From a virus, in IMG/VR virus record IMGVR_UViG_3300043410_001471, positions 1 through 64,000 of that record: 64,000 nucleotides of DNA. One strand, 5' to 3'. The notes beneath the pieces were generated by a model. That model did not search any database. It was not told the DNA's origin and was given only the letters and a program-made list of their open reading frames with translations. Positions 214 to 59,433 of this stretch are shown here, one piece after another. A program made the translations under genes and the position numbers. Each line of letters begins with the position of its first letter. The stretch's first letter is position 1.

Positions 214-813
214 ATGATAAACAATATAGAACTTATTAAACCATTATTAAACTTTGAAAGTGTAGGTGATTTCTATATGCTATATATTTTCAAGCGTAAG
301 AAAGACCAAACTACCGATAAAGCAAATCATCAATCGGTGAGAACAATCAAAACTTATTGTATTGAAAGTATCGAAGAATTGGAATCTCGTTATGATGAGA
401 TTATTCAGTTGTGTGAGATGTTTAAAGCAAGAGCATACATTCACATTCAGAAACAAAACCATAAAGATGTTGCGATGAATATGATTACTGAAATTGTAAC
501 TCGTATCCAATCGGGTCAAATCAATCAAAAGCATGTGTTCGATTCGGTAGTTGGGCAATTGAAAACGAATGAGAAACGATGGATTGTGGATATTGATACA
601 ACCAATAGAGAAGAAATTATTAAAATTGATAAATTCATTACGGAATTAAGACCCGAAGGAAATAAAACGGAAGGTATAGTTCCAACTAAAAATGGAGTTC
701 ATCTTATCACAAAACGATTTGATGTAAAGGAATTTGAAACGCAATATCCTAACATTGATATCCAAAAGAAGAATCCAACATTATTGTATTATCCAAATAG
801 TTTAGATATATGA
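214..813 (+). CDS. hypothetical protein
   Basis: ORF 142..813 trimmed to the ATG (MINNIELIK) downstream of the promoter; the start context ATGATAAACAATAT recurs at 23072. Confidence 0.55.
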   Translation: MINNIELIKPLLNFESVGDFYMLYIFKRKKDQTTDKANHQSVRTIKTYCIESIEELESRYDEIIQLCEMFKARAYIHIQKQNHKDVAMNMITEIVTRIQSGQINQKHVFDSVVGQLKTNEKRWIVDIDTTNREEIIKIDKFITELRPEGNKTEGIVPTKNGVHLITKRFDVKEFETQYPNIDIQKKNPTLLYYPNSLDI

Positions 814-1463
814 AACTAACATTAGAAAGAGGACAAAGATTGTGGTTCACAAGTGATACTCACTACAATCACGCAAATATTTGTTCCGCCACAACAAAGT
901 GGACAGACCCGGTGACTTGTAGAGAGTTTAAAACATTAGAACATATGAACGCAACATTGGTAGGTAATATCAATGAAGTAGTTGGGCAAGATGATATTCT
1001 ATTTCATTTAGGTGATTGGAGTTTTGGTGGATTTGAACAAATTGAATTATTCAGAAATCAAATCATTTGTAAGAATGTTCATATCATTACAGGTAACCAT
1101 GACCACCACATTGAGAACAACAAAGAAGGGTGTCAATCACTTTTCAGTTCGGTAAACAAATACCTAAACTTAAATGTGAAGTGGAGAGTTGGAACTCCTT
1201 TAGCTGGAGAACAACGATTTGCCTTAATGCACTTTCCAATCGCAAGTTGGGATAATATGGCGAAGGGAGCAATTCACTTACATGGACATGTTCACTTTGA
1301 ACCGAGAATACGAGTTGGTAAAGGTAAGATGATGGATGTGGGAGTAGATGGTAACGGATTGTACCCAATTGAATTAAAAGATGTATTACGATTGATGGAT
1401 AGACAACCAATCAAAAGTATGTTTGAGTTTGACCATCACGAGATTGTAGAAAATTATAGATAA
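810..1463 (+). CDS. calcineurin-like metallophosphoesterase
   Basis: Motifs SDTHYNH, LGDWSFGG, GNHDHH, HGHVHF; ATGA overlap with the upstream gene. Confidence 0.8.
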   Translation: MKLTLERGQRLWFTSDTHYNHANICSATTKWTDPVTCREFKTLEHMNATLVGNINEVVGQDDILFHLGDWSFGGFEQIELFRNQIICKNVHIITGNHDHHIENNKEGCQSLFSSVNKYLNLNVKWRVGTPLAGEQRFALMHFPIASWDNMAKGAIHLHGHVHFEPRIRVGKGKMMDVGVDGNGLYPIELKDVLRLMDRQPIKSMFEFDHHEIVENYR

Positions 1464-1464
1464 A

Positions 1465-1677
1465 ATGGAAGATAAAAAAATAACAATTAAGGTATTCAAT
1501 TTCCCTTACATCCTATTTCAATTACCAACTGCAATGATTGGTTATACGATACATAAAAGTATTGGTTGGGCGATTATGGATTTCTTCTTTGCTCCACTTG
1601 CTTGGTGTAAGTGGTTGATTATGCAAGAAGTGAATATGAGTATTATCAAAGAAACATTTAATTTCTTTTTAAAATAG
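1465..1677 (+). CDS. small hydrophobic hypothetical protein
   Basis: 70-aa ORF tightly packed between neighbouring genes. Confidence 0.4.
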   Translation: MEDKKITIKVFNFPYILFQLPTAMIGYTIHKSIGWAIMDFFFAPLAWCKWLIMQEVNMSIIKETFNFFLK

Positions 1678-1682
1678 AATTT

Positions 1683-2096
1683 ATGAAAAATTTAATATTA
1701 TTAAGAGGATTGCCAGGTAGTGGTAAATCTACATTCGCTAAAACTATGTGGAGTGAATTGGTAGTTTGTGAAGCCGATGATTATTTCATAGATGAAGAAA
1801 CTGGCGAATATAAATTCAATGCAAGGGATTTACCTAAAGCACATAATTGGTGTAGATTTAGAGTAGAAACCTTTATGAAGGATAATCAGATGAATGACCA
1901 ATTCTATCCAAACATCGTAGTATCAAATACATTCACTCAATATTGGGAAATGGATGAATATTATGAATTGGCTAAAAAGTATGGTTATACAGTTTATTCT
2001 TTAATCGTAGAGAATAGACATGGTGGTGTTAATCAACATGGAGTTCCTGCTGATAAGTTAGAACAAATGAAAAATAGATTTGAAGTAAAGTTATGA
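1683..2096 (+). CDS. P-loop kinase, polynucleotide-kinase-like
   Basis: N-terminal Walker A LLRGLPGSGKST; its size and position beside an RNA ligase resemble the kinase module of Pnk-type healing enzymes. Confidence 0.55.
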   Translation: MKNLILLRGLPGSGKSTFAKTMWSELVVCEADDYFIDEETGEYKFNARDLPKAHNWCRFRVETFMKDNQMNDQFYPNIVVSNTFTQYWEMDEYYELAKKYGYTVYSLIVENRHGGVNQHGVPADKLEQMKNRFEVKL

Positions 2097-2386
2097 CACA
2101 ACAAGAATTTAATACAAAATACAAACAATACATACCAGAAGGTTGGGGTGGATTGGAATTCGATATACCAGAAGTTACTGATTACTTGGATAGTATTATG
2201 GATTATGGATTGGTTAATCTACCTGATTTCAAATTACATCAAATCAAATTAAAGTTTGGTATGAATCGATTCTATTTTGAAACATCAATGGAAAATAAAA
2301 AGCTAGAAGCAATTATTGAATTTGGAATAGAGCAACAAGTGAATAATATATTAATGAAAATATTAAAAGATGGAAAATTTAAATAG
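2093..2386 (+). CDS. hypothetical protein
   Basis: 97-aa ORF overlapping both neighbours by 4 and 17 nt. Confidence 0.5.
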   Translation: MTQQEFNTKYKQYIPEGWGGLEFDIPEVTDYLDSIMDYGLVNLPDFKLHQIKLKFGMNRFYFETSMENKKLEAIIEFGIEQQVNNILMKILKDGKFK

Positions 2387-3527
2387 CGTATGTTTCGTAG
2401 CAGAAGTTACGGAAATCAAAGAAATCGTAGGAGCTGATAACATTGAACAAGCCGTAGTAGGTGGTTGGAGTTGTATCGTAAAGAAAGGAGTTCATAAAGT
2501 TGGTGAAACAGTCGTATGTGCAACTACCGATGCAGTTATTCCATTTGAATTATCTGAAAAATTGGGAGTAACCAATTATTTGAGAAATGGTGGTAGAGTT
2601 AGGACTGTAAAGTTAAGAGGTGTATATTCAGAATGTTTGATTATCGATTTTGATAACTTACCTCAAATGAAAAAACAATTTACCAAAGGTATTGGGTATT
2701 ATTGGGAAAATGGTGAAGATGTAATGGAGTTATTGGGTATCTTCAAATATGAACCACCGGTTAAGCAAATTCAATTAGCAAGTGGTAGAAAGATTCGTTA
2801 TCAAGACAATCCTAATTTCCACGTTTACTATAAGTTCCCTAACTTAAAGAATGTGCCAGGATTGTTTACCGAAGAGGACACAGTTGAAATCACTCGTAAG
2901 ATTCACGGAACAAATGCCCGTTATGGTATTGTTAAGAAAAACAAATTATCATTGTGGGATAAGGTGAAGAAATTCTTACGATTGGCAGACAAGTGGGTTG
3001 AATATGAATTCGTAGTTGGTTCACATAATGTTGAAAAGGGTTCGGATTCACAAGGTTTTTATGATACGAATGTTTGGTATGAAATCGAAAAGAAATATGA
3101 CATCAAAAACAAATTATGGGATTATGTGAAAGATGAATTGTATGATGTTGAAATTGGTGATGGTATTACCTTATATGGTGAGATTTACGGAGCTGGAATT
3201 CAAAAGGGATATGATTATGGGTTGAAGGAGATTGAGTTCGTAGGATTCGATGCAAAAGAGAATGGTGAGTATTTGAGTACAATCAATTCAAAGTTGTTAT
3301 TCAGAGATATGTTAAAATTACCATATGTTGAGGAATTGTATTATGGTAATTGGTCACAATCAGTACAAGATAAATTTGTATTCAATAACTTCATTGAAGG
3401 AACTAAAGTACCACATGAAGGTATTGTAATCAAACATCAAACAGGCGAAAGACAAAAGATTGCTAAAGTAATCAACCCTGATTATTTAATCTATGGTGAG
3501 AAGCATGATATTGGAGATTCACATTAA
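2370..3527 (+). CDS. ATP-dependent RNA ligase (Rnl2-like nucleotidyltransferase)
   Basis: Motif I KIHGTNAR (lysine-adenylate site, very close to T4 Rnl2 KIHGTN), motif IV EIYGAGIQKGY, motif V EGIVIK. Confidence 0.75.
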   Translation: MENLNSVCFVAEVTEIKEIVGADNIEQAVVGGWSCIVKKGVHKVGETVVCATTDAVIPFELSEKLGVTNYLRNGGRVRTVKLRGVYSECLIIDFDNLPQMKKQFTKGIGYYWENGEDVMELLGIFKYEPPVKQIQLASGRKIRYQDNPNFHVYYKFPNLKNVPGLFTEEDTVEITRKIHGTNARYGIVKKNKLSLWDKVKKFLRLADKWVEYEFVVGSHNVEKGSDSQGFYDTNVWYEIEKKYDIKNKLWDYVKDELYDVEIGDGITLYGEIYGAGIQKGYDYGLKEIEFVGFDAKENGEYLSTINSKLLFRDMLKLPYVEELYYGNWSQSVQDKFVFNNFIEGTKVPHEGIVIKHQTGERQKIAKVINPDYLIYGEKHDIGDSH

Positions 3528-4837: not shown

Positions 4838-5065
4838 ATGAACGCATTAATCGTTTATTACATTGTATGTATTATCTATTGTTTCTATCAGTTAAATAAA
4901 AAATATAAGAATAGAGGAGTAGATTATGGAACATCGCCAGAGTTAGATTCAATTATGGTATTGGTTATGGCATGGGTATTAGCACCTATTGATGTATCTA
5001 TTACTTGGATTAGAATGGTAAAGGAAGCTGAAGAAGCAAAAAGAAGAAATAGTAATATCTATTAA
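4838..5065 (+). CDS. small membrane protein
   Basis: 75-aa ORF with a hydrophobic N-terminus and a basic C-terminus. Confidence 0.4.
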   Translation: MNALIVYYIVCIIYCFYQLNKKYKNRGVDYGTSPELDSIMVLVMAWVLAPIDVSITWIRMVKEAEEAKRRNSNIY

Positions 5066-5071
5066 GATAAA

Positions 5072-5157
5072 GGAAGGGTGGCAGAGTTGGTCTATCGCGC
5101 TTGACTTGAAATCAAGTGACTGTAACAGGTCCGTGGGTTCGAATCCTACCCCTTCCG
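5072..5157 (+). tRNA. tRNA-Ser (anticodon TGA), type II
   Basis: Acceptor GGAAGGG/CCCTTCC, anticodon arm CTTGA-CTTGAAA-TCAAG, long variable arm, T arm GTGGG-TTCGAAT-CCTAC. Confidence 0.8.
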
Positions 5158-5162
5158 CAAAT

Positions 5163-5315
5163 TGTGGTGTGTTGAAATTGGCAGACAAGCCCTCCTGTCT
5201 CGGGGGTAGTGAGAACGAAATAGGTGAGTAATATGGGGTAGACCACCAGCCGGCCGGCGAAAGTGTTACTTACTGAATCGCACTATGGATGGTTCGAATC
5301 CTCCCACCACAGCCA
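5163..5315 (+). ncRNA. tRNA-like element with an ~80-nt insertion (tRNA-Asp GTC-like 5' half, encoded CCA)
   Basis: Perfect 7-bp acceptor TGTGGTG/CACCACA, then G-CCA. D arm and anticodon arm (CCCTC-CTGTCTC-GGGGG) fold. The T arm (GATGG-TTCGAAT-CCTCC) is imperfect and separated from the anticodon arm by an 81-nt insert containing the GCCGGCCGGC palindrome. Confidence 0.4.
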
Positions 5316-5328
5316 TTTTTATAAAGTT

Positions 5329-6006
5329 ATGAATAAAACAAAAGACAAAATTCTTTTTCAATTAGATGACTGGGTTTCCGATAAAGGAAATGGTGGCTAT
5401 GTACCAATTGATTTTAGCCCATATCCGGCAATTCATAATAACTTTTTAAATGAAGAAGTTGGTATTCAGCAAAATAGAGAGGAATTGGAAAAATTCATAG
5501 ATGTTCTATTACAATCCAATGGCGGAGTTTGTTTAGAAATTGGTTTAGGATTTTTTGGAAGTACTCATTTTCTTTGGAGGCAAATTTACAATAGAGTGAT
5601 TACAATCGAAAAGAACTTTGAAAGAATCAGAGAGTTTGGTCGTAATATGAAAAAATTCTATGGAGATTGGGTATTGGATGATGGTAAATCCCAATTTTTT
5701 ATTGGATATTCTAATAACGAAAAGGTAATAGCCGATGTCTACAAAAATATATCAGAAATTGATTTCTTATTTATAGATGGCAATCATTCATATGAATCGG
5801 TATTATGTGATTTCTTATTATACTACCCATTGGTGAAAAAGGGTGGAATTATTGGATTTCACGATACGGCATTATCGGAAGATAATATGGGAGTTCCACA
5901 ATTGATAGCTGAAATTAGAACTGGAAAATATACCAACGGACAACGAATCGATATCAAAGATATTGTTGAAAACAAATGGTCTGGTATTAGTTATTTTTAC
6001 AAATAA
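5329..6006 (+). CDS. class I SAM-dependent methyltransferase
   Basis: Motif I LEIGLGFFGS and LFIDGNHSYE...GGIIGFHD (CmcI/TylF-like). ORF 5263..6006 trimmed to the ATG at 5329 because its GTG-initiated N-terminus overlaps the tRNA-like element. Confidence 0.65.
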   Translation: MNKTKDKILFQLDDWVSDKGNGGYVPIDFSPYPAIHNNFLNEEVGIQQNREELEKFIDVLLQSNGGVCLEIGLGFFGSTHFLWRQIYNRVITIEKNFERIREFGRNMKKFYGDWVLDDGKSQFFIGYSNNEKVIADVYKNISEIDFLFIDGNHSYESVLCDFLLYYPLVKKGGIIGFHDTALSEDNMGVPQLIAEIRTGKYTNGQRIDIKDIVENKWSGISYFYK

Positions 6007-10888: not shown

Positions 10889-13168
10889 ATGAGTTTTTTC
10901 AACAAATTTAAGGGTAACGATTCAAAGAAATCAGTTAGTTCCTTTTGGTATGATGAATACAATACATCATACGATTATTTAGACCAGTATTCTGATATGG
11001 ATTCAGATACTTTAAAGGCATTTAAGAAAACCAATGACCTTTACAAATTATCTGCAACTCGAAGAGCTATCGCCAACTTCGTTCAGATTGTAACACAAAA
11101 GAACATTCCTGTTACTTTTGCCAGTAAATCAGATTCTAAAACCGATGGTGAACGAGTTATCCTTTCCGCTGATGTGGATGATAACTTTGATGTTTCCGTA
11201 GGTTTAGCATTGCACGAAGGTTCTCACATCTTACTTTCTGACTTTAAATTGTTAGAGGAAATGAGTAGTGTGTTTGATAAAGTTCATTGGGTTTATTCTA
11301 AAGCCAAATATGAGAATGAGATTTCAGTAGCAAATGGTACTGCTATCGTATGGGATAATGAGAAAATAGTGAATACTATTATTGGTGTTATTTCTACATT
11401 CAAATACCACAAAGGGTTTTCGGAAATGTATTTACCAACAGGTAAGATTGGTTCTAAAGGTAAATTAACTAAAGAGGTTAAGGATTTGATTGGTGGATTA
11501 ACCAATTGGATTGAGGACCGTAGAATTGACTATCACATTTTCACTTCAGCACCGGGTTATAGAGAGTATTACACATCTATGTACGACCACTACTTTAATG
11601 ATAAAATGATTACTAAAGGTATCATTTCAGATGAGTATACTGATGAGGATTTTGAATCATACATGTTTCGTATTATTAACTTACACAATGAGAAAACCGA
11701 TTTGAGTAAGTTGAAAGGTTTACGAGCTATCTATCGTATGATTAACTTAAACGACATCAAGCGTTTAAAGAATACCGAAGATGCTTTTATGTTGGCAATC
11801 GATGTGGTTTCTGAAATTCTTAAATATGTACCAATGGGTGGTGAAGGTGATTTGAACAAAGAGAAATCATCCGATGGACAATCCAATGGTGAGCAAGATG
11901 AAGAATCAACTGAAGGACAAGGACAAGGTGGTGACGCCGGTGAAGAAAAGAATGATTCGCAAGGTGGTGCTAATGCCAGTTCAGAAGGTATTGAGGGTGA
12001 GCAAACCGATTCGGATTCCAATTCAGAATCTGCTCCAACTGCAGGTGATGTTAATGGTAAGGATACAATGAGTAAAGCAGCTCAATCACAATTGGCTAAG
12101 AAATTCAAAAAACAAAAGGATTTCTTAAACGATGCTATTAAGAAGAAAAAACTTCAAAAGGGTGAAATTGATAAATTGGATAACATTGCCGCTTCTGATA
12201 CTGAATTGGTTCGTGTAGGTTCTGATTACCAAGACCAATATGGTAATACCATTGGTAAAGGTGTGGATTGTATCGTAGTTAAGAATCTTACTGATTCCCT
12301 AATTAATGATGAGGCATTCCCATTCAGTTACATTGATTACAAAACTAAGGAAGCTCAACGATGGGCTGAAAGTGAGGTTCGTAAAGGTGTTACATTGGGT
12401 ACATTGTTAGGTAAAAAATTGCAAGTTCGTAATGAGAGTAGAGAGACTGTTTATTCTCGTCTTACTAAAGGTAAGATTGATGGTAGAATGGTTGCTTCGT
12501 TGGGATACGATAATGAGAATGTGTTCTATTCTAAAGAGGTTGACCAATTTAAGAAAGCTAACTTACACATCTCTATTGATTATTCTGGCTCAATGAGTGG
12601 TGAAAAGTTACGAAGAGCAATCACTTCGACTGTGGCAATTGTTAAGGCTTGTGAAATGGCTCGTAACATCAATGTTCAGGTATCGATTCGTTCTACTGAT
12701 AATGGGTCTCGTTGTTTACCTTACATCGCTGTTGTATACGATTCTCGTAAATCCAACTTCAAAAAGTTTTGTAAATATATGAGTATCTTACGAGCTAATA
12801 ACACTACACCAGAAGGTTTATGTTTTGAAGCAATTCAGAAGCAATTGATTCCATCTAATAACGAATCGGATTCATACTTCTTAAACTTCTCCGATGGTGA
12901 ACCTTGCTACTCTATTAACAATGGTGGTGATGATATTTACTATCGTGGTGAGGCAGCAGCTAAACACACTCGTAAGCAAGTTAAGAGAATGCAAGATGCT
13001 GGTATCAATACATTATCGTATTTCATTACCGATTATAGTGGTGATATCAAACATACAACCGCTTGGAAATTATTCGAACAATGTTATGGTAAAGGTGCTA
13101 AATCAGTAAATGTAGAGAATATGTTTGAGGTAGCAAAAACGATGAACGAATTGTTCTTAACAAAATAG
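10889..13168 (+). CDS. vWA-domain protein (CobT-like), with an acidic Gly/Ser/Glu-rich linker
   Basis: C-terminal MIDAS motif SIDYSGSMSG; partner of the downstream AAA+ gene. Confidence 0.75.
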   Translation: MSFFNKFKGNDSKKSVSSFWYDEYNTSYDYLDQYSDMDSDTLKAFKKTNDLYKLSATRRAIANFVQIVTQKNIPVTFASKSDSKTDGERVILSADVDDNFDVSVGLALHEGSHILLSDFKLLEEMSSVFDKVHWVYSKAKYENEISVANGTAIVWDNEKIVNTIIGVISTFKYHKGFSEMYLPTGKIGSKGKLTKEVKDLIGGLTNWIEDRRIDYHIFTSAPGYREYYTSMYDHYFNDKMITKGIISDEYTDEDFESYMFRIINLHNEKTDLSKLKGLRAIYRMINLNDIKRLKNTEDAFMLAIDVVSEILKYVPMGGEGDLNKEKSSDGQSNGEQDEESTEGQGQGGDAGEEKNDSQGGANASSEGIEGEQTDSDSNSESAPTAGDVNGKDTMSKAAQSQLAKKFKKQKDFLNDAIKKKKLQKGEIDKLDNIAASDTELVRVGSDYQDQYGNTIGKGVDCIVVKNLTDSLINDEAFPFSYIDYKTKEAQRWAESEVRKGVTLGTLLGKKLQVRNESRETVYSRLTKGKIDGRMVASLGYDNENVFYSKEVDQFKKANLHISIDYSGSMSGEKLRRAITSTVAIVKACEMARNINVQVSIRSTDNGSRCLPYIAVVYDSRKSNFKKFCKYMSILRANNTTPEGLCFEAIQKQLIPSNNESDSYFLNFSDGEPCYSINNGGDDIYYRGEAAAKHTRKQVKRMQDAGINTLSYFITDYSGDIKHTTAWKLFEQCYGKGAKSVNVENMFEVAKTMNELFLTK

Positions 13169-13314
13169 GCTCGGAAAGCCCGTGATTTAGGGGTGAAAAT
13201 CCCCTATTTCACAACTTATTGATAATCAATCACTTATAAATGGGGGTTTTTTGGGACACATAACTCATTGATAATCAATCAACTAAAAATATTTTAAAAA
13301 TAATTGATAAAATG

Positions 13315-13346
13315 TTTGGCAATATCGAAATTTCTTCGTATATTGT
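13315..13346 (+). promoter_or_regulatory. Bacteroidota-type promoter (conserved cassette)
   Basis: TTTGGCAATATCG...CGTATATTGTG, 21-bp spacing. Confidence 0.5.
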
Positions 13347-13412
13347 GTAAACAATTGAGGGAGATAGTTCCCCAATCTGAATTTTAAACTTTAAACATTA
13401 AATTATACCATT

Positions 13413-14651
13413 ATGGCTACTACCAAAGTAAACAAAAGTAAAAAAGATTTAAATATTGGTTTTACCAACGAAATCTACAAAGTGATTCAAGTAGGTCGTT
13501 CATTCGCTATGTTGACTACTGATGACAAATCGGTAACTAAAGTTGCCGGAGTAACTAAAGCTCGTATGAAAAACGCCTTAGCTGATAATAAAGCTATTCA
13601 GGGTTATATCGGTAAGACGGGTAAATTAACCTACAAATTAGTTGAGATGGATGAGTTCAAAAAGTTAGCACATTCTACTGAAGAAGTTAAAGCTGAATCG
13701 GTGCATGAGGCATTCGAAACACATGAGGCTTTGAAATCATTCATTCACGACAAAGGTTACGATTTCAAACCGAAAGGTTTATTTATGGACCAATTAAAGT
13801 GGAAATACTTACTTCGTTCAGCAGTTCGTGGTAAGAACATTATGATGGTTGGACCGACTGGTTGTGGTAAAACATTGGCCGCTCAATCATTGGTTAAATC
13901 ACTTAACCGACCTGATTTCTACTTTAACTTAGGTGCTACGCAGGACCCGAGAGCAACTTTAATTGGTAATACTCACTTCGATAAAGTAAAGGGTACATTC
14001 TTTAGTGAATCAGCATTCGTTAAGGCGATTAAAACTCCAAACTCAATTATCTTATTAGATGAGATATCTCGTGCTCATCCAGAAGCTTGGAACATCTTAA
14101 TGACTGTGTTAGACCAGGGACAACGATACCTTCGTTTGGATGAGGCTGAAGGTTCACCAATCGTTAAGGTTGCTAGTGGTGTTACATTTATCGCTACGGC
14201 TAACATCGGTAACGATTATACATCGACTCGTATTATGGACCGTGCGATGATGGACCGATTCGTTCAAATTGAGATGGACTTGTTAGATAAACAATCAGAG
14301 TTCGATTTGTTAAAACTTATTTATCCTGAAGCTGATGAGTATTCATTAAACGCTTTAGCTGAAATCGCTTCTACAACGCGTGAGTTAGTTAAGACTGATG
14401 CCAGTAAGGTATCAACAATCGTATCGACTCGTGCTAATGTTGAGGCGGCTGGTTTAATCTACGATGGATTCACATTGATGGAGGCAGCTGATATCGCTAT
14501 CTTACCTTACTTCTCTAACGATGGAGGTTTAGATTCAGAGCGTGTGTTTATGAAGCAATTAGTTCAGAAATATATTAAGACTGATTCATCCGATGATAAA
14601 CTTTTCAATGAAGTTAAGGATGAACAAAATGAAGATACTATCGTGTGGTAG
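13413..14651 (+). CDS. AAA+ ATPase, MoxR/CobS-like
   Basis: Walker A GPTGCGKT, Walker B ILLDEISRA, sensor region NILMTVLDQGQRY. Confidence 0.8.
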   Translation: MATTKVNKSKKDLNIGFTNEIYKVIQVGRSFAMLTTDDKSVTKVAGVTKARMKNALADNKAIQGYIGKTGKLTYKLVEMDEFKKLAHSTEEVKAESVHEAFETHEALKSFIHDKGYDFKPKGLFMDQLKWKYLLRSAVRGKNIMMVGPTGCGKTLAAQSLVKSLNRPDFYFNLGATQDPRATLIGNTHFDKVKGTFFSESAFVKAIKTPNSIILLDEISRAHPEAWNILMTVLDQGQRYLRLDEAEGSPIVKVASGVTFIATANIGNDYTSTRIMDRAMMDRFVQIEMDLLDKQSEFDLLKLIYPEADEYSLNALAEIASTTRELVKTDASKVSTIVSTRANVEAAGLIYDGFTLMEAADIAILPYFSNDGGLDSERVFMKQLVQKYIKTDSSDDKLFNEVKDEQNEDTIVW

Positions 14652-45858: not shown

Positions 45859-48123
45859 ATGAAAGGAACTTTTTTTTCAATGGACTTCATCGAAGATGTT
45901 GATGGTAATGTTCGTTTAATGGAAATTAATACGGATACCGCAATAGTTGAAGGTGGAATAACTAATTTAGATTTTACTGATTTTATAGATATGCTTGATG
46001 CAAATTCTATAACCGAAGTACATACAATTTCAAAAGCGTTTCAATCCGGTTTTGTAAATGCGTTATCACAAAGTTTAAGTGAGGATGCACCATTTATAAC
46101 TGTATTCGAAAATCATATGGAAGAAGATTCTACCATATACCCATCTTCAGTAGTCGATACTACCGATAGATTTATAATGAGATTGGCTTATGATGAGGCT
46201 GCTATATTCGATTCTGAATATGCTAAAAATAAATTGGCTCCATTAGATTTGTTCTATACAAATGATGATACTGGTTCTATTGTAGAGTATTATGTTTCAT
46301 CGTCTGCAAATGGTGTTACTGATATATTACCAATGGATTTCAATTCAGCGGAAATGCCGGATATCGCAGTTAAGAATTTGAATACAAATGTAAATAATTC
46401 TATTAAGTTTTTCAAAATAGGACACTCTTCATCTGAAACGGATGTTAGATATGATAAAGTAAAGGAAGCATTTTCTGAAAATAATCTTATTATTAAATTC
46501 TATGAAAATCCTTCAGATACTAAAGTTAAAAGTATTCGTTCAGTAAATGTAATCTACGGACCTAATTTGGATGTAATTACATTTGGTAGCTTCATAAGTG
46601 AGGCTTTATTTGAAAAACCTGTATCTTTAGAATTTGATGATGAAGTTATTATAACTAATTCAAATGTTAAACATTATTATGAATTAACTACAAACTATCC
46701 AAGATTTACAAATGTAAACAATTGGGGTGGAATCTTTGAAGAAGAAGAAGTAGTTAAAGCAGATGGTGGTAATATTTTAATAGGTAGTGCATCGGTTGGT
46801 ACTGAATTGAAATCATACTTTATCGAAGGTGCACCCAATACGGATGTTGTATCAGAATTCATGCAATGGTCTTCTCCAGGTTCTTCAATGCCATCGGGTT
46901 CATATGAAACTTCATCTGTTGTTGTTAATAATATTGAACAAGAGTTATCAAATAACACAATATTCCACTTAGTTATGGAAGATGGTTCTGATTTCAGAGC
47001 ATCGGGTGGAGCACACTTATTGGTATACGATAATGAAAAAGATGTATTGAGATATGAATCAGTTTCTAAAATAGATGAATCACTTCATAAGTTAGTTAAT
47101 TTGGATGGCGGTTTGGTTAATATATCTGCATCATATGGTGAGATATTAGATGGTGATTATAAAACTATCATTGTCGATATGGAAACTACCGATACATTCT
47201 TCTTATATAATGGTGGATTAAGTGTTAAAATTGTAACACATAACTGCTTCCCAGCTGGAACTAAAATTACTTTAGCAGATGGTTCTGAAAAGAACATCGA
47301 AGATTTAACAACCGATGATAAGTTATTAACTTACAATGAAAAAACGGGTATATTATCGGAAGGTACAATTGGTAACATTGTAAAGAAAAAAGAATTCTTA
47401 CTAATACAATTGGAATCAGAAGATGGTTCTATTGTTAAATCAACTGCTCTTCACAAATTCTATGTAAAAGGAAAAGGATGGGTAGCAGCGCAAGATATCG
47501 TAAAAGGTGATGTGTTAATTAAGAAAGATAAAAGTGAAACGATTGTAGTTGATAGAAACGATTTAAGTGGTGAGGTTGATGTATATCATATTATTGATGT
47601 TAAAGATAATCACACTTATTTTGCAGAAGGATTATTAGTACATAATTTCAAATATAGTGGTGGTTCTTGCTTTGTAGCAGGAACTAAAGTAACTATGGGA
47701 GATGGTTCTGAAAAGAATATTGAAGATGTAGTTGTTGGAGATGAAGTACTTTCTTTCAATGAATCTACTTTACAAAATGAAGTTAAGAAAGTAATTGGAT
47801 TAAAAACTCCAATTCACAATGATTTAGTTAAATACGAATTTGCAAATCAAACTTCAATAACTTCTACATTTGACCATCCATTCTATGTTGGTAATTTGGA
47901 ATTGGCATCATTTACTCCATTCTTAACTAATAAAAGATATGAATTGGATAGAGATGTTAGACAAATTAAAGTAGGTGATATGGTTTATTTATCTAATGGT
48001 GTTAGTAAAACAGCCATCAAAGATATCATTGAATTGGATGAGAAAGATACTCAAACATATATCATAACAGTGGAAGATAACCATAATTTTTACGCTAACG
48101 GAATTTTAGTACATAATAAATAA
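45859..48123 (+). CDS. large protein ending in two tandem Hint (intein-like/BIL) domains
   Basis: Hint 1 at 47245..47646 (CFPAGTKI...TALHKF...VHN) and Hint 2 at 47668..48117 (CFVAGTKV...TFDHPF...VHN-K-stop). The N-terminal residues DFIEDVDGNVRLMEINT resemble the C-terminal motif of ATP-grasp enzymes. Confidence 0.7.
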   Translation: MKGTFFSMDFIEDVDGNVRLMEINTDTAIVEGGITNLDFTDFIDMLDANSITEVHTISKAFQSGFVNALSQSLSEDAPFITVFENHMEEDSTIYPSSVVDTTDRFIMRLAYDEAAIFDSEYAKNKLAPLDLFYTNDDTGSIVEYYVSSSANGVTDILPMDFNSAEMPDIAVKNLNTNVNNSIKFFKIGHSSSETDVRYDKVKEAFSENNLIIKFYENPSDTKVKSIRSVNVIYGPNLDVITFGSFISEALFEKPVSLEFDDEVIITNSNVKHYYELTTNYPRFTNVNNWGGIFEEEEVVKADGGNILIGSASVGTELKSYFIEGAPNTDVVSEFMQWSSPGSSMPSGSYETSSVVVNNIEQELSNNTIFHLVMEDGSDFRASGGAHLLVYDNEKDVLRYESVSKIDESLHKLVNLDGGLVNISASYGEILDGDYKTIIVDMETTDTFFLYNGGLSVKIVTHNCFPAGTKITLADGSEKNIEDLTTDDKLLTYNEKTGILSEGTIGNIVKKKEFLLIQLESEDGSIVKSTALHKFYVKGKGWVAAQDIVKGDVLIKKDKSETIVVDRNDLSGEVDVYHIIDVKDNHTYFAEGLLVHNFKYSGGSCFVAGTKVTMGDGSEKNIEDVVVGDEVLSFNESTLQNEVKKVIGLKTPIHNDLVKYEFANQTSITSTFDHPFYVGNLELASFTPFLTNKRYELDRDVRQIKVGDMVYLSNGVSKTAIKDIIELDEKDTQTYIITVEDNHNFYANGILVHNK

Positions 48124-57738: not shown

Positions 57739-59433
57739 ATGATTAAATTAGGTTTATCCGCATTTTACCACGATTCAGCAGCAGCTTTATTAATAGATGG
57801 TAAGGTAATATTCGCAATAGAAGAAGAGAAGTTGTCAGGCATAAAGCATGACAACTCTTTTCCGTTTAAGGCAATTCAAAAATGTTTAGAATATGCACAT
57901 ATTACAATAGATGAAGTTGATGTTGTGTGTTGGTATGAAGATTCGGATATAAAATACGACAGAGTTGAAAAAACTTTAGGTAAACGATGGATATCCAAAT
58001 GGAGAACTTGGAATAAGTTTAAAAAGGATTGGAGAACTGGTGAAGGAGCATTGGGGGCAATATTGGAAAGTATTGGATACAATGGTTCATTGGTATTCGT
58101 TAAACATCATCTATCTCACTTAGCTTTATCATTTTATACATCTCCATTCGATGATGCAATTGGATTATCGATTGATGGGGTAGGTGAATGGGATACTATT
58201 TCAATGGTGAATTGTGATTTAAATGGAATTTCGGAAATTAAATCAGTTAAATTCCCTAACTCATTGGGATTGGTATATTCTACGATAACTTCATACTTAG
58301 GATTCAAACCAAATAGTGGTGAGTATAAAGTTATGGGGTTAGCACCTTATGGTAATCCTGACAAATATTATGATATATTCAATAAATTTACATCATTTGG
58401 TGGAGATAATTTAATTAATATAAATCAAAAGTATTTTACTTGGGAATATTCTAATAATGATATGTTTACTATGGATTTGGTAGATTTAATCGGATTTGAA
58501 CCAAGAATGCCAGAATCGGAATTAGAATTACATCATATGGAATTGGCAGCCGCTTTACAAAAGTGGTATGAGGGTTGTTTATATTATCTAATTAATCATG
58601 CAGCTAGTTATTCTAAAAGTTCTAATTTAGTATTAGGGGGTGGTTCTGCTTATAATGGAACTGCTAATGGTAAAATAAAGCAACATTGCGGTGTTAAGAA
58701 TGTTTGGATTCCATACGCACCATCCGATGCTGGTTCTGCTATTGGAGCTTGTTTATACTTTTGGCACGATATGATGAATCATCCAAAAGTTAAAGGTGGG
58801 GATAATCAATCACCCTATTTAGGAGAAGAATTTGGTATCGGTGAACTATATGAAGCAATTGTTGATTCAAAGAAAATCGAAGTTGAATCATATCCAAATT
58901 CTAGTGATTTAGTAGAAAAAGTGGCTAATTTGATTAATGATGGTAATATAATTGGGTGGTTTCAAGGTAGAACAGAATTCGGAGCAAGAGCATTGGGTAA
59001 TCGTTCAATACTTGCTAACCCACATTTACCAGATGTTAGAGATAGAATTAATAAGGTTGTAAAAAAGAGAGAAATGTTTAGACCATTTGCTCCATCAGTA
59101 ACTCATAGAGAATATAAAAAATATTTTACTTCAGAGGAAGATGTACCTTATATGAATCAAGTAGTTAAAGTTACAAATTACAAAAAGATTCCATCTGTAA
59201 CCCATGTTGATAATTCAGCAAGAATACAAACTGTTAAAAAAGAACAAAATCCTTTATATTACAAATTACTCAAACAATTTAAAAAAGTAAGTGGAACTCC
59301 AATACTTTTAAATACTTCATTTAATTTAAGAGGTCAAACAATGGTAAACGACCCTAAAACGGCAATTCAAACATTTTTAAATTGCGATATGGATTATTTA
59401 GTTATGGGGCATTTTATAATAAGTAAGAAATAA
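57739..59433 (+). CDS. NodU/CmcH-family carbamoyltransferase
   Basis: MIKLGLSAFYHDSAAALLIDGKVIFAIEEEKLSGIKHD N-terminal signature; 564-aa length is typical. Confidence 0.8.
   Translation: MIKLGLSAFYHDSAAALLIDGKVIFAIEEEKLSGIKHDNSFPFKAIQKCLEYAHITIDEVDVVCWYEDSDIKYDRVEKTLGKRWISKWRTWNKFKKDWRTGEGALGAILESIGYNGSLVFVKHHLSHLALSFYTSPFDDAIGLSIDGVGEWDTISMVNCDLNGISEIKSVKFPNSLGLVYSTITSYLGFKPNSGEYKVMGLAPYGNPDKYYDIFNKFTSFGGDNLININQKYFTWEYSNNDMFTMDLVDLIGFEPRMPESELELHHMELAAALQKWYEGCLYYLINHAASYSKSSNLVLGGGSAYNGTANGKIKQHCGVKNVWIPYAPSDAGSAIGACLYFWHDMMNHPKVKGGDNQSPYLGEEFGIGELYEAIVDSKKIEVESYPNSSDLVEKVANLINDGNIIGWFQGRTEFGARALGNRSILANPHLPDVRDRINKVVKKREMFRPFAPSVTHREYKKYFTSEEDVPYMNQVVKVTNYKKIPSVTHVDNSARIQTVKKEQNPLYYKLLKQFKKVSGTPILLNTSFNLRGQTMVNDPKTAIQTFLNCDMDYLVMGHFIISKK

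What the first reader, a model, noticed from the sequence alone, without database searches (positions are those of the whole stretch)
5163..5315. tRNA-like gene with an ~80-nt insertion between the anticodon arm and the T arm
Immediately after tRNA-Ser there is a perfect 7-bp acceptor stem (TGTGGTG...CACCACA-G-CCA with encoded CCA), a foldable D arm and an anticodon arm (CCCTC-CTGTCTC-GGGGG, anticodon GTC). An 81-nt insert containing the all-GC palindrome GCCGGCCGGC then separates these from a degenerate T arm (GATGG-TTCGAAT-CCTCC, only 3 of 5 pairs). This is too short for a group I intron and in the wrong position for a canonical anticodon-loop intron. It could be a tRNA disrupted by a mini-insertion, a tRNA-like decoy or regulatory RNA, or a structured RNA that merely uses a tRNA-like end.
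Basis: seen in the sequence. Interest (0 to 1): 0.6.

Follow-up and report, generated by a model that had tools for sequence, protein, structure and literature searches.

The report
Self-pairing tRNA-shaped phage RNA family
The flagged sequence is a real, widely conserved phage RNA that folds like a tRNA but carries a giant 77-nt extra arm with a self-complementary tip, so it is probably a non-decoding, dimer-forming tRNA mimic rather than a broken tRNA gene.

Summary
The 7-bp acceptor stem, encoded CCA, anticodon-like arm with GTC, ~80-nt insertion and GCCGGCCGGC palindrome are all there. The T arm is not degenerate: it has 5 pairs plus one bulged U.

The element belongs to a discrete RNA family. 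About 160 full-length copies (88-172 bits) were found in uncultivated phage contigs and mostly freshwater metagenomes. Rfam 15 has no match and ARAGORN does not call it. Seven helices covary strongly (93.7% paired, 0 of 500 shuffles reach this).

The "insertion" sits exactly where class II tRNAs carry their variable arm. It is a conserved rod: 4 bp, a 4-nt bulge, 3 bp, an AAUA/GAA internal loop, 12 bp and a junction. Its tip is always a perfect 8-12-nt palindrome of changing sequence, the signature of RNA-RNA dimerisation.

GUC, C38, G73 and G2-C71 (tRNA-Asp identity nucleotides) are nearly invariant. U33 is not conserved and position 37 is always a pyrimidine, and normal tRNA-Asp genes co-occur, so it is not a decoder.

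It lies in phage tRNA arrays, usually about 4 nt after tRNA-Ser. Best reading: a tRNA-processed, self-dimerising tRNA-Asp mimic. Its target is unknown.

The parts
5072..5158 (+). tRNA-Ser(UGA). It is the upstream partner in the same transcript, and the spacer CAAAU (5158-5162) separates it from the element.
   Evidence: ARAGORN and Rfam tRNA at 52 bits. The nearest upstream tRNA is tRNA-Ser in 127 of 154 evaluable loci, lies within 12 nt in 84 of them, and is always on the same strand.
5163..5315 (+). The whole tRNA-shaped RNA, 153 nt.
   Evidence: Covariance model R1 scores it at 170.7 bits. About 160 homologues score 88-172 bits, whereas ordinary tRNAs score below 50.
5163..5169 (+). Acceptor stem, 5' strand (UGUGGUG). 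U1, G2 and U3 are nearly invariant in the family.
   Evidence: It pairs with 5305-5311. The helix is 98.9-100% paired, with double changes at 4-5 of 7 pairs.
5172..5188 (+). D arm: 3-bp stem UUG/CAA and 11-nt loop AAAUUGGCAGA (A14, G18 G19). About half of the relatives carry an extra hairpin inside this loop.
   Evidence: The stem is 100% paired, with UA, AU and GC types seen. Inserts are listed.
5189..5207 (+). Anticodon-like arm: 6-bp stem and 7-nt loop CUGUCUC. GUC (5197-5199) is invariant. Position 33 is U, C or A. Position 37 is U or C. Position 38 is C, rarely A.
   Evidence: 5 of 6 stem pairs covary.
5208..5284 (+). Hypertrophied variable arm, 77 nt. In order: P4 AGUG/CACU, 4-nt bulge AGAA (5212-5215), P5 CGA/UCG, internal loop AAUA (5219-5222) / GAA (5275-5277), 12-bp P6 (5223-5234 / 5263-5274), and an apical junction.
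   Evidence: P4, P5 and P6 are 97.8-100% paired and show double changes. The apical helix used in model R1 is not supported (68% paired).
5235..5246 (+). Near-invariant apical segment GGGGUAGACCAC. GACCAC is invariant. It may form a small hairpin GG[UAGA]CC.
   Evidence: Conservation. It stayed invariant even when the search pattern left this region free. The hairpin is an inference; there is no covariation to test it.
5249..5258 (+). Self-complementary apical element GCCGGCCGGC, the proposed dimerisation site.
   Evidence: All 41 distinct apices carry a perfect palindrome of 8 nt or more, and 95% carry 10 nt or more, in 13 different sequences. Among shuffled controls 1.3% reach 10 nt. The hairpin form scores 0 to -2.6 kcal/mol against -13 to -24 kcal/mol for the self-duplex.
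5285..5286 (+). Linker AU. U5286 corresponds to position 48 and is invariant, as expected for the partner of A15.
   Evidence: Consensus. The tertiary pair is inferred from general tRNA knowledge.
5287..5304 (+). T arm: GGA(U)GG / UUCGAAU / CCUCC, 5 bp with one bulged U. The T loop GUUCGAAUC is invariant.
   Evidence: 90-92% paired, 3-4 pairs with double changes.
5305..5315 (+). Acceptor stem 3' strand CACCACA, discriminator G73, and CCA. G73 and C74 are invariant. Most relatives encode GCAA rather than GCCA.
   Evidence: Canonical phage tRNA-Asp genes in the same contigs carry the same kind of 3' trailer.

Best explanation
Window 5163-5315 encodes a stable non-coding RNA of a previously uncurated phage family.

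**What it is.** It is a complete class II-type tRNA body: 7-bp acceptor stem, 3-bp D stem, anticodon-like arm, 5-bp T arm and the tertiary-core nucleotides. Its variable arm has grown into a 77-nt rod with conserved internal motifs and a self-complementary tip.

**How it is probably made.** It is transcribed with the phage tRNA array, usually as a dimeric precursor with tRNA-Ser. RNase P and 3' trimming plus CCA addition would then release it, as for the neighbouring tRNAs.

**What it probably does.** It does not decode. It keeps the nucleotides by which tRNA-Asp is recognised (G34 U35 C36, C38, G73, G2-C71), but lacks U33 and a purine at position 37. Two molecules pair through the palindromic apex to give a symmetric two-headed tRNA mimic. 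I consider it most likely that this dimer binds or titrates a protein that recognises tRNA-Asp. The candidates are a host tRNA-targeting defence nuclease or AspRS, and the neighbouring RNA-repair genes fit the first.

**Shown:** the family, the fold, the conservation pattern, the genomic context and the palindrome signature.
**Inferred:** the processing, the dimer, the non-decoding status and the protein target.

I put about 0.75 on the RNA being a non-decoding structured RNA, about 0.55 on the dimer, and about 0.2 on the decoy target.
For: **Family and fold**
- The first homologues, found beside the same neighbouring gene, already covary in every stem.
- Model R1 finds 37 full-length copies in IMG/VR contigs.
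- It also finds a copy in each of the 120 metagenome loci retrieved: 115 full length and 5 cut by contig ends.
- 93.7-93.8% of cells are paired, 22-25 pairs change on both sides, and 0 of 500 shuffles reach this.

**tRNA nature**
- After in-silico deletion of the arm, ARAGORN calls the element tRNA-Asp(gtc) at default settings.
- U8, A14, G18 G19, U48 and the T loop are conserved.

**Not a decoder**
- The loop reads Y-N-GUC-Y-M. Position 33 is U, C or A, and position 37 is always a pyrimidine.
- The 13 canonical tRNA-Asp genes in the same contigs all read YUGUCAC.
- Canonical tRNA-Asp co-occurs with the element in at least 13 loci.

**Processing context**
- The element is on the same strand as the array in 141 of 141 loci, and tRNA-Ser lies within 12 nt in 84 of 154.
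- The 3' trailers (GCAA and similar) match those of the real tRNAs.

**Dimer**
- 13 different perfect palindromes occur, with central tetranucleotides switching among GGCC, UGCA, CCGG, GCGC and AGCU.
- The hairpin form is marginal or absent, while the self-duplex is strong.
- The same signature was used, and confirmed by cryo-EM, for symmetric intermolecular loops of OLE and GOLLD RNAs (PMC12286853, read).

**Possible defence link**
- Phosphoesterase, PNK-like kinase and RNA ligase genes lie 1.6-4.4 kb upstream, and also near the element in L004, L204, L211 and L214.
- Phage tRNAs are known to counter anticodon nucleases (PMC10264068, listed).
Against: - There are no expression data, so stability and mature ends are unverified.
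- GUC and GACCAC never vary. Their conservation therefore cannot be assigned to protein recognition rather than to an RNA-RNA contact.
- From textbook knowledge, class II AspRS faces the variable-region side of its tRNA, so a long arm there might block binding. This was not tested.
- G10, another bacterial Asp identity element, is not conserved (position 10 is U, G or A).
- The RNA-repair genes are adjacent only in a related subset of contigs, so the association may be shared synteny.
- The palindrome could in principle act at the DNA level.
- The decoy target is speculation.
Confidence: 0.5

Rival explanations
1. The tRNA frame is only a handle, and the function lies wholly in the arm. On this view the tRNA body serves for RNase P and CCA processing and for stability, as in engineered tRNA scaffolds or the herpesvirus tRNA-miRNA chimeras. 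The rod with its internal loop, bulge and junction is the working part: a binding site for a protein, a ligand or another RNA, or a building block of an RNA-only assembly.
For: - The arm holds the longest invariant stretches: GAAAUAG, AGUAAUAU, GGGGUAGACCAC, UGUUACU and UGAAUC.
- The palindrome signature points to RNA-RNA assembly.
- A minority of members carry a second palindrome in the D-loop insert, which would allow chains rather than dimers.
- GOLLD and ROOL, also encoded near phage tRNA islands, are RNA-only assemblies.
Against: - A mere handle would not need an invariant GUC triplet, C38, G73 and U1-A72/G2-C71/U3-A70 across about 160 copies while neighbouring positions drift.
- No known aptamer or ribozyme family matches the arm.
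Confidence: 0.25
2. It is aminoacylated and serves as an amino-acid carrier outside normal decoding. AspRS would charge it through GUC, C38, G73 and G2-C71, or SerRS through the long arm and G73. It would then donate the amino acid in a tRNA-dependent, non-ribosomal reaction, or be converted on the tRNA in the way tRNA-Sec or Asp-tRNA-Asn are.
For: - The Asp identity nucleotides are invariant or nearly so, and the 3' end is tRNA-like with G73 and C74.
- The class II architecture with a 3-bp D stem and G73 resembles tRNA-Ser and tRNA-Sec.
- The invariant U1-A72 is, from general knowledge, the feature that GatCAB uses on tRNA-Asn and tRNA-Gln.
Against: - No candidate transferase or converting enzyme was found among the conserved neighbours.
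- G10 is not conserved.
- A 77-nt arm on the side that AspRS faces may prevent charging (general knowledge, untested).
Confidence: 0.12
3. It is a working tRNA-Asp isoacceptor that decodes GAY codons despite its giant variable arm. tmRNA shows that a long helix leaving from the variable-arm position fits on the ribosome.
For: - The cloverleaf and core nucleotides are complete, and the GUC anticodon is invariant.
- ARAGORN types the arm-deleted body as tRNA-Asp.
Against: - U33 is replaced by C or A in roughly a fifth of distinct sequences, and position 37 is never a purine.
- The true tRNA-Asp genes in the same arrays all have U33 and A37.
- Those genes already supply the isoacceptor.
Confidence: 0.06
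4. It is a tRNA gene carrying an intron or a degenerate insertion. The insert would either be spliced out to give a 76-nt tRNA, or it marks a pseudogene.
For: Deleting 5208-5284 leaves a sequence that ARAGORN accepts as tRNA-Asp.
Against: - The insert is more conserved than the tRNA body and its helices covary.
- It matches no group I or group II intron and no self-cleaving ribozyme in Rfam.
- It is too short for a group I intron and lies outside the anticodon loop.
- ARAGORN's intron mode does not call it.
- The loop would remain non-canonical after any splicing.
- A pseudogene would not be kept in about 160 contigs.
Confidence: 0.03
5. The feature acts at the DNA level. It would be a palindromic protein-binding or recombination site, or a phage attachment site copied from a tRNA gene.
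For: A perfect palindrome is present in every copy.
Against: - The palindrome has 13 different sequences, so no single protein site is conserved.
- Compensatory changes in seven helices that are not palindromic can only be selected in a single-stranded transcript.
- The element is always co-oriented with the tRNA array.
Confidence: 0.02

Closest known systems
Phage T4 species 1 and species 2 RNAs (rnaC, rnaD)
   Same: They are small stable RNAs of unknown function encoded at the end of a phage tRNA cluster and on the same strand. rnaC (139 nt) has a canonical T arm, a closing stem and long extra hairpins. This is the closest analogue in context and general design.
   Different: There is no detectable homology: R1 scores rnaC at 12.5 bits, over the T arm only. 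In rnaC the D and anticodon arms are replaced by a long hairpin. Here the full cloverleaf is kept and the expansion is in the variable arm. rnaC shows no palindromic tip in the sequence read.
Class II tRNAs (Ser, Leu, bacterial Tyr, Sec) and the non-canonical 'allo-tRNAs' (PMC5389517)
   Same: A helical extra arm starts directly after the anticodon stem. The D stem has 3 bp and the discriminator is G73, as in tRNA-Ser and tRNA-Sec. R1's best-scoring ordinary tRNAs in phage T4 are tRNA-Leu and tRNA-Ser. Allo-tRNAs set a precedent for odd class II-like tRNAs in bacteria and phages that may be regulatory.
   Different: From general knowledge, normal variable arms are about 13-25 nt; this one is 77 nt and has a bulge, an internal loop and a junction. 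The anticodon-loop rules (U33, R37) are broken. The Rfam tRNA model and ARAGORN do not call it.
tmRNA
   Same: It has a tRNA-like acceptor and T-arm domain, with a long helix leaving from the variable-arm position. tmRNA genes are encoded by the same phage group.
   Different: The element has U3-A70 rather than the G3-U70 alanine identity pair, and it has no tag reading frame or pseudoknots. It is 150-176 nt against 350-400 nt. It keeps an anticodon arm. ARAGORN's tmRNA mode does not call it.
GOLLD, ROOL and OLE RNAs
   Same: GOLLD and ROOL are phage or prophage RNAs encoded near tRNA islands. All three form homo-oligomers held by symmetric loops whose palindromic centres covary (GGCC, GAUC, AGCU). 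That is the same signature seen in this apex.
   Different: Those RNAs are 580-800+ nt and are not tRNA-shaped. There is no Rfam match here. Oligomerisation of the present RNA is inferred, not observed.
Bacterial Y RNA-like YrlA (PMC4201824)
   Same: It is a non-coding RNA with a module that mimics the tRNA T and D arms, and it is also found in some phages.
   Different: From general knowledge, YrlA has a Ro60-binding stem formed by its 5' and 3' ends and has neither an aminoacyl-acceptor end nor an anticodon arm. No Rfam match was found, and no Ro60 gene appeared among the proteins annotated.
Candidate structured RNA 'DNAVirus_1850' of Fremin et al. 2023 (PMC10690425)
   Same: It is described as a tRNA-like candidate found 27 times in IMG/VR, overlapping an ARAGORN tRNA-Asp call at one site. 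That description would fit this family.
   Different: Identity could not be checked, because the supplementary tables are not held. That paper gives no anatomy, dimer signature or function.

Membership tests
Canonical decoding tRNA (Rfam RF00005) | Detected by the standard tRNA models | tested here: not met
   ARAGORN in default and intron modes gives no call. Rfam tRNA gives no match even at E up to 10 in a 451-nt search. It is called only after the arm is deleted in silico.
Canonical decoding tRNA (Rfam RF00005) | Cloverleaf with 7-bp acceptor stem, D arm, anticodon arm, 5-bp T arm, and conserved U8, A14, G18 G19 and T loop | tested here: met
   All four stems covary, and the core nucleotides are invariant.
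Canonical decoding tRNA (Rfam RF00005) | U33 and a purine at position 37 in the anticodon loop | tested here: not met
   Position 33 is U, C or A, and position 37 is U or C in every copy. The 13 canonical tRNA-Asp genes in the same contigs all have U33 and A37.
Class II tRNA | Helical variable arm starting directly after the anticodon stem, with a 3-bp D stem | tested here: met
   The arm spans 5208-5284 between the anticodon stem and U48, and the D stem has 3 bp. Its length of 77 nt is far outside the normal range.
tRNA-Asp (bacterial identity set, from general knowledge) | G34 U35 C36, C38, G73, G2-C71 | tested here: met
   GUC, G73 and G2-C71 are invariant or nearly so, and C38 is present in all but a few copies.
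tRNA-Asp (bacterial identity set, from general knowledge) | G10 | tested here: not met
   Position 10 is U, G or A (pair 11-50).
tRNA-Asp (bacterial identity set, from general knowledge) | Aminoacylation by AspRS | not testable with these tools
   This needs a charging assay.
tRNA gene with a group I intron | Intron in the anticodon loop with a group I catalytic core of about 200 nt or more | tested here: not met
   The insert is 77 nt and lies outside the anticodon loop. No Rfam intron match was found.
tmRNA | G3-U70 pair, tag reading frame, pseudoknots, detection by ARAGORN | tested here: not met
   The pair is U3-A70. ARAGORN -m gives no call. Genuine tmRNAs are found elsewhere in related contigs.
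T4 rnaC / rnaD | Sequence and structure homology | tested here: not met
   R1 with filters off scores rnaC at 12.5 bits, over the T arm only. The predicted architectures differ.
Self-cleaving ribozymes and riboswitch aptamers in Rfam 15 | Match to a curated covariance model | tested here: not met
   Nothing relevant appears at E up to 10 over 5000-5450. The only other sizeable match (sX4, 30.6 bits against a 70-bit cut-off) rests largely on the tRNA-Ser region (5069-5214).
Homo-oligomeric phage RNAs with symmetric palindromic contacts (as in GOLLD and OLE) | Palindromic loop or segment whose centre covaries between different palindromes | tested here: met
   13 distinct perfect palindromes occur, with five different self-complementary centres. 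The criterion is taken from PMC12286853.
Homo-oligomeric phage RNAs with symmetric palindromic contacts (as in GOLLD and OLE) | Physical oligomer | not testable with these tools
   Only nearest-neighbour energies were computed: self-duplex -13 to -24 kcal/mol against hairpin 0 to -2.6 kcal/mol.

The most novel reading that the evidence does not exclude
The RNA is a small RNA-only quaternary device. Two tRNA-Asp look-alikes are joined tip to tip through their palindromic arms into a symmetric dumbbell. In the members that carry a second palindrome in the D-loop insert, longer chains could form. The dumbbell would capture a dimeric tRNA-binding enzyme or a host tRNA-cleaving defence protein. The invariant GUC loop and the invariant GAC of the apex may additionally form a codon-anticodon-like contact within or between the two molecules. 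This would be the first natural tRNA mimic that works as an obligate RNA dimer, and a compact relative in principle of the GOLLD and ROOL assemblies found next to phage tRNA islands.
Probability: 0.2. Interest if true: 0.85.

Novelty: new variant of a known kind. Interest (0 to 1): 0.68.

Why it matters
- **An open problem in phage biology.** Phage tRNA arrays are increasingly seen as counter-measures against host tRNA-cleaving defences. Yet the non-tRNA RNAs embedded in them (T4 species 1 and 2, GOLLD, ROOL) have remained without function for decades.
- **A tractable example.** This family is small enough for biochemistry and cryo-EM, abundant in lake viromes, and has a clear fold. It yields two sharp, testable predictions: it dimerises through the palindrome, and it is recognised through tRNA-Asp identity nucleotides without decoding.
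- **An annotation gap.** It shows how far the variable-arm position of the tRNA fold can be expanded, and it is missed by the tools tried here: ARAGORN does not call it and Rfam 15 has no match.

Tried and rejected
**Searches that missed or were wasted**
- A megablast of the first 20 kb of the window against GenBank phages found nothing. A blastn of 5060-5330 hit only the tRNA-Ser part. No deposited phage therefore carries the element at that sensitivity.
- The pattern GGTTCGAATCCNNCCACCACAGCCA found only an unrelated GC-rich tRNA-like sequence in L001-L003.

**Structural ideas that failed or could not be tested**
- The apical helix predicted by RNAalifold and used in R1 is only 68% paired and was dropped.
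- The GUC loop pairing with the apex AGAC could not be tested, because both are invariant and the flanking positions do not compensate.
- K-turn and hammerhead readings of the internal loop were rejected by inspection. The AAUA/GAA loop resembles a bulged-G (loop E) motif with A in place of G, but this rests on memory only.

**Origin and partners**
- Comparison of arm-deleted bodies with the tRNAs of the same arrays gave no nearest isotype (identities 0.55-0.67).
- In the neighbour clustering, the RNase H-like (PF04308) gene just downstream in 54 loci is absent from this window. The adjacent methyltransferase is shared with only two relatives, L004 and L005.
- The promoter and terminator scan was uninformative.
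- The supplement of PMC10690425 is not held.
Full report
**1. Observation**

- UGUGGUG (5163-5169) pairs perfectly with CACCACA (5305-5311), followed by G and an encoded CCA.
- An anticodon-like hairpin GCCCUC/CUGUCUC/GGGGGU lies at 5189-5207, with GUC in the anticodon position.
- A long insert contains GCCGGCCGGC (5249-5258).
- A T loop UUCGAAU follows.
- tRNA-Ser(UGA) ends 4 nt upstream.

Neither ARAGORN nor Rfam 15 calls the element, at gathering scores or at E up to 10. ARAGORN's intron-permissive mode does not call it either. The single-sequence folding energy is unremarkable (z = -0.58), so the sequence alone does not prove anything.

Two details need correcting. The T stem is intact, with 5 pairs and one bulged U. 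The D stem has 3 pairs.

**2. It is a family**

Two uncultivated-phage contigs that share the neighbouring methyltransferase gene (L004, L005) carry the same element after tRNA-Ser. Compensatory changes appear in every stem.

A covariance model built from these three sequences (R1) gave the following.
- 37 full-length copies at 117-172 bits in IMG/VR contigs retrieved with a pattern from the arm.
- A copy in each of the 120 metagenome loci retrieved with a pattern that left the apex and the anticodon-like loop free. 115 of these are full length and 5 are cut by contig ends.
- Ordinary tRNAs score below 50 bits, so the family is discrete.

No GenBank phage record has the element at blastn sensitivity. 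One copy sits on a 2.8-kb contig binned to a Cytophagales genome. Most metagenome records appear, from their accession names, to be freshwater; a few are explicitly marine.

Host contigs are 40-370 kb and carry up to 25 tRNA genes. Several also carry a tmRNA gene.

**3. Fold**

| Alignment | Distinct sequences | Cells paired | Pairs changed on both sides | Paired when partners slid | Shuffles reaching the observed value |
|---|---|---|---|---|---|
| A3 | 34 | 93.7% | 25 of 46 | 41-55% | at most 1 of 500 |
| A4 | 85 | 93.8% | 22 of 46 | 41-53% | 0 of 500 |

Seven helices are supported: the acceptor stem (7 bp), the D stem (3 bp), the anticodon-like stem (6 bp), three arm helices of 4, 3 and 12 bp, and the T stem (5 bp). 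The apical helix that RNAalifold had proposed is not supported (68% paired).

The insert begins directly after the anticodon stem and ends two nucleotides before the T stem. That is the variable-arm position of class II tRNAs. The 3-bp D stem and G73 are also class II traits.

The arm reads as follows:
- P4;
- a 4-nt bulge (A-N-N-A);
- P5;
- an internal loop AAUA/GAA flanked by an invariant G-U pair;
- a 12-bp P6;
- the near-invariant GGGGUAGACCAC;
- a palindrome;
- a short variable linker.

About half of the members have an extra hairpin inside the D loop, which gives two size classes of about 151-155 nt and 160-177 nt.

**4. Not a decoder, not an intron, not a wreck**

The triplet GUC is invariant. 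C38, G73, C74 and the pairs U1-A72, G2-C71 and U3-A70 are invariant or nearly so. However, position 33 is U, C or A, and position 37 is always a pyrimidine.

The 13 canonical tRNA-Asp genes found in the same contigs all read Y-U-GUC-A-C. The element therefore keeps what a protein would use to recognise tRNA-Asp and has lost what the ribosome needs. It is also redundant as an isoacceptor.

With the arm removed in silico, ARAGORN types it as tRNA-Asp(gtc). The arm is nevertheless the most conserved part of the molecule and matches no intron or ribozyme family. Splicing or decay explanations therefore fail.

**5. Context and maturation**

This section is largely inferred.
- In 154 loci with enough upstream sequence, the nearest upstream tRNA is tRNA-Ser in 127. 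It lies within 12 nt in 84, and it is on the same strand in all 141 loci that have an upstream tRNA.
- The base before U1 is almost always U.
- Most copies encode GCAA rather than GCCA, the same kind of trailer as the true tRNAs of these phages.

This points to co-transcription with the array, RNase P cleavage at the 5' end, and 3' trimming followed by CCA addition. No expression data were available.

In this window, a phosphoesterase (810-1463), a PNK-like kinase (1683-2096) and an RNA ligase (2370-3527) lie between tRNA-Gln and tRNA-Ser. The same set is near the element in four related contigs.

The most widespread protein neighbour is a 75-residue membrane protein upstream of tRNA-Ser, found in 96 of 179 loci.

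**6. Dimer signature**

All 41 distinct apical sequences contain a perfect palindrome of 8-12 nt, and 95% have 10 nt or more. There are 13 different palindromes. Their centres switch among GGCC, UGCA, CCGG, GCGC and AGCU. Only 1.3% of shuffled controls reach 10 nt.

A hairpin needs complementary flanks but not a self-complementary centre, and adjacent central bases cannot pair within one strand. The computed hairpins are marginal (0 to -2.6 kcal/mol), whereas the self-duplexes are worth -13 to -24 kcal/mol.

Kretsch et al. used exactly this pattern as evolutionary support for symmetric intermolecular loops of OLE and GOLLD that they observed by cryo-EM (PMC12286853). I therefore infer that two molecules pair tip to tip. 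This is inference, not observation.

**7. Mechanism**

My best account is a tRNA-processed, non-decoding, self-dimerising mimic of tRNA-Asp that presents two tRNA-like heads.

What it binds is open. Two candidates fit the conservation pattern:
- a host nuclease or other defence factor that recognises the tRNA-Asp anticodon loop, which would fit the RNA-repair genes and the emerging view of phage tRNAs as anti-defence tools (PMC10264068);
- AspRS itself.

Against AspRS, G10 is not conserved, and the arm lies on the side that class II synthetases face (general knowledge). The rival that the tRNA body is only a processing handle for a functional arm is not excluded and is partly compatible. The invariant GUC, G73 and acceptor-end nucleotides argue that the body has its own role.

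**8. Comparison and novelty**

- **T4 rnaC and rnaD.** These are the nearest analogues in context, but they are not homologous and are built differently.
- **tmRNA.** It shares the idea of a long helix at the variable-arm position, but its defining features are absent.
- **GOLLD and ROOL.** They share the tRNA-island context and the palindrome-covariation signature, but they are much larger and unrelated.
- **DNAVirus_1850.** This candidate from a large IMG/VR screen may be the same family, but that could not be checked.

I rate the element as a new variant of a known kind: a phage tRNA-array-encoded tRNA-like RNA. The giant structured variable arm and the self-complementary tip are its new features.

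Noticed in passing
window 810-3527: A phosphoesterase (810-1463), a P-loop PNK-like kinase (1683-2096) and an RNA ligase with a PHA02142 OB domain (2370-3527) lie together. This is a complete RNA end-healing and sealing set, placed between tRNA-Gln and tRNA-Ser. It suggests that the phage repairs cleaved tRNAs.
   Followed up: partly
window 4838-5065: A 75-residue predicted membrane protein lies just upstream of tRNA-Ser. It is the most conserved protein neighbour of the element (96 of 179 loci) and has no Pfam match.
   Followed up: partly
L503 and 53 other loci, directly 3' of the element: A PF04308 RNase H-like (YkuK/DUF458) gene starts within a few tens of nucleotides after the element in 54 loci. 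It is absent from this 64-kb window.
   Followed up: partly
D loop of relatives (alignments A3 and A4, columns 14-47): About half of the members have an extra 10-23-nt hairpin in the D loop. In a minority this insert is itself a perfect 8-12-nt palindrome (for example AGCGTACGCT, TGAGTATACTCA, AGCACGCGTGCT). That would give a second self-pairing site.
   Followed up: partly
L145 1028-1383, L196 5143-5517, L200 5148-5523, L211 1840-2225, L225 7924-8330, L410 4460-4828: The related phage contigs encode their own tmRNAs. One tag ends GEYNYAIAA and several end ...GADYAVAA. They also carry near-complete tRNA sets of up to 25 genes.
   Followed up: no
L200 1417-1491, L202 8120-8190, L209 287-359: ARAGORN reports 'tRNA-???' genes with two-base anticodons in the arrays of related contigs. 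These may be further non-canonical tRNA-like genes.
   Followed up: no
L001 1491-1569 (also L002 and L003): GC-rich viral contigs carry a 79-nt tRNA-like sequence with the same acceptor stem (UGUGGUG...CACCACAGCCA) but an aberrant anticodon arm. It scores 32 bits against Rfam tRNA and is not called by ARAGORN.
   Followed up: partly
window 45859-48123: A 754-residue ORF has Hint/intein and pretoxin-HINT domains in its C-terminal third.
   Followed up: no
window 10889-14651: A 759-residue protein with a weak VWA/CobT-like match is followed by a MoxR-type AAA+ ATPase. This looks like a MoxR-VWA pair.
   Followed up: no
window 57739-59433: A Nol-like carbamoyltransferase is 30-33% identical to those of cyanomyophages and pelagimyophages. 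This hints that the window comes from a large aquatic myovirus-like phage. Every ORF of 135 aa or more in the window is on the + strand.
   Followed up: no
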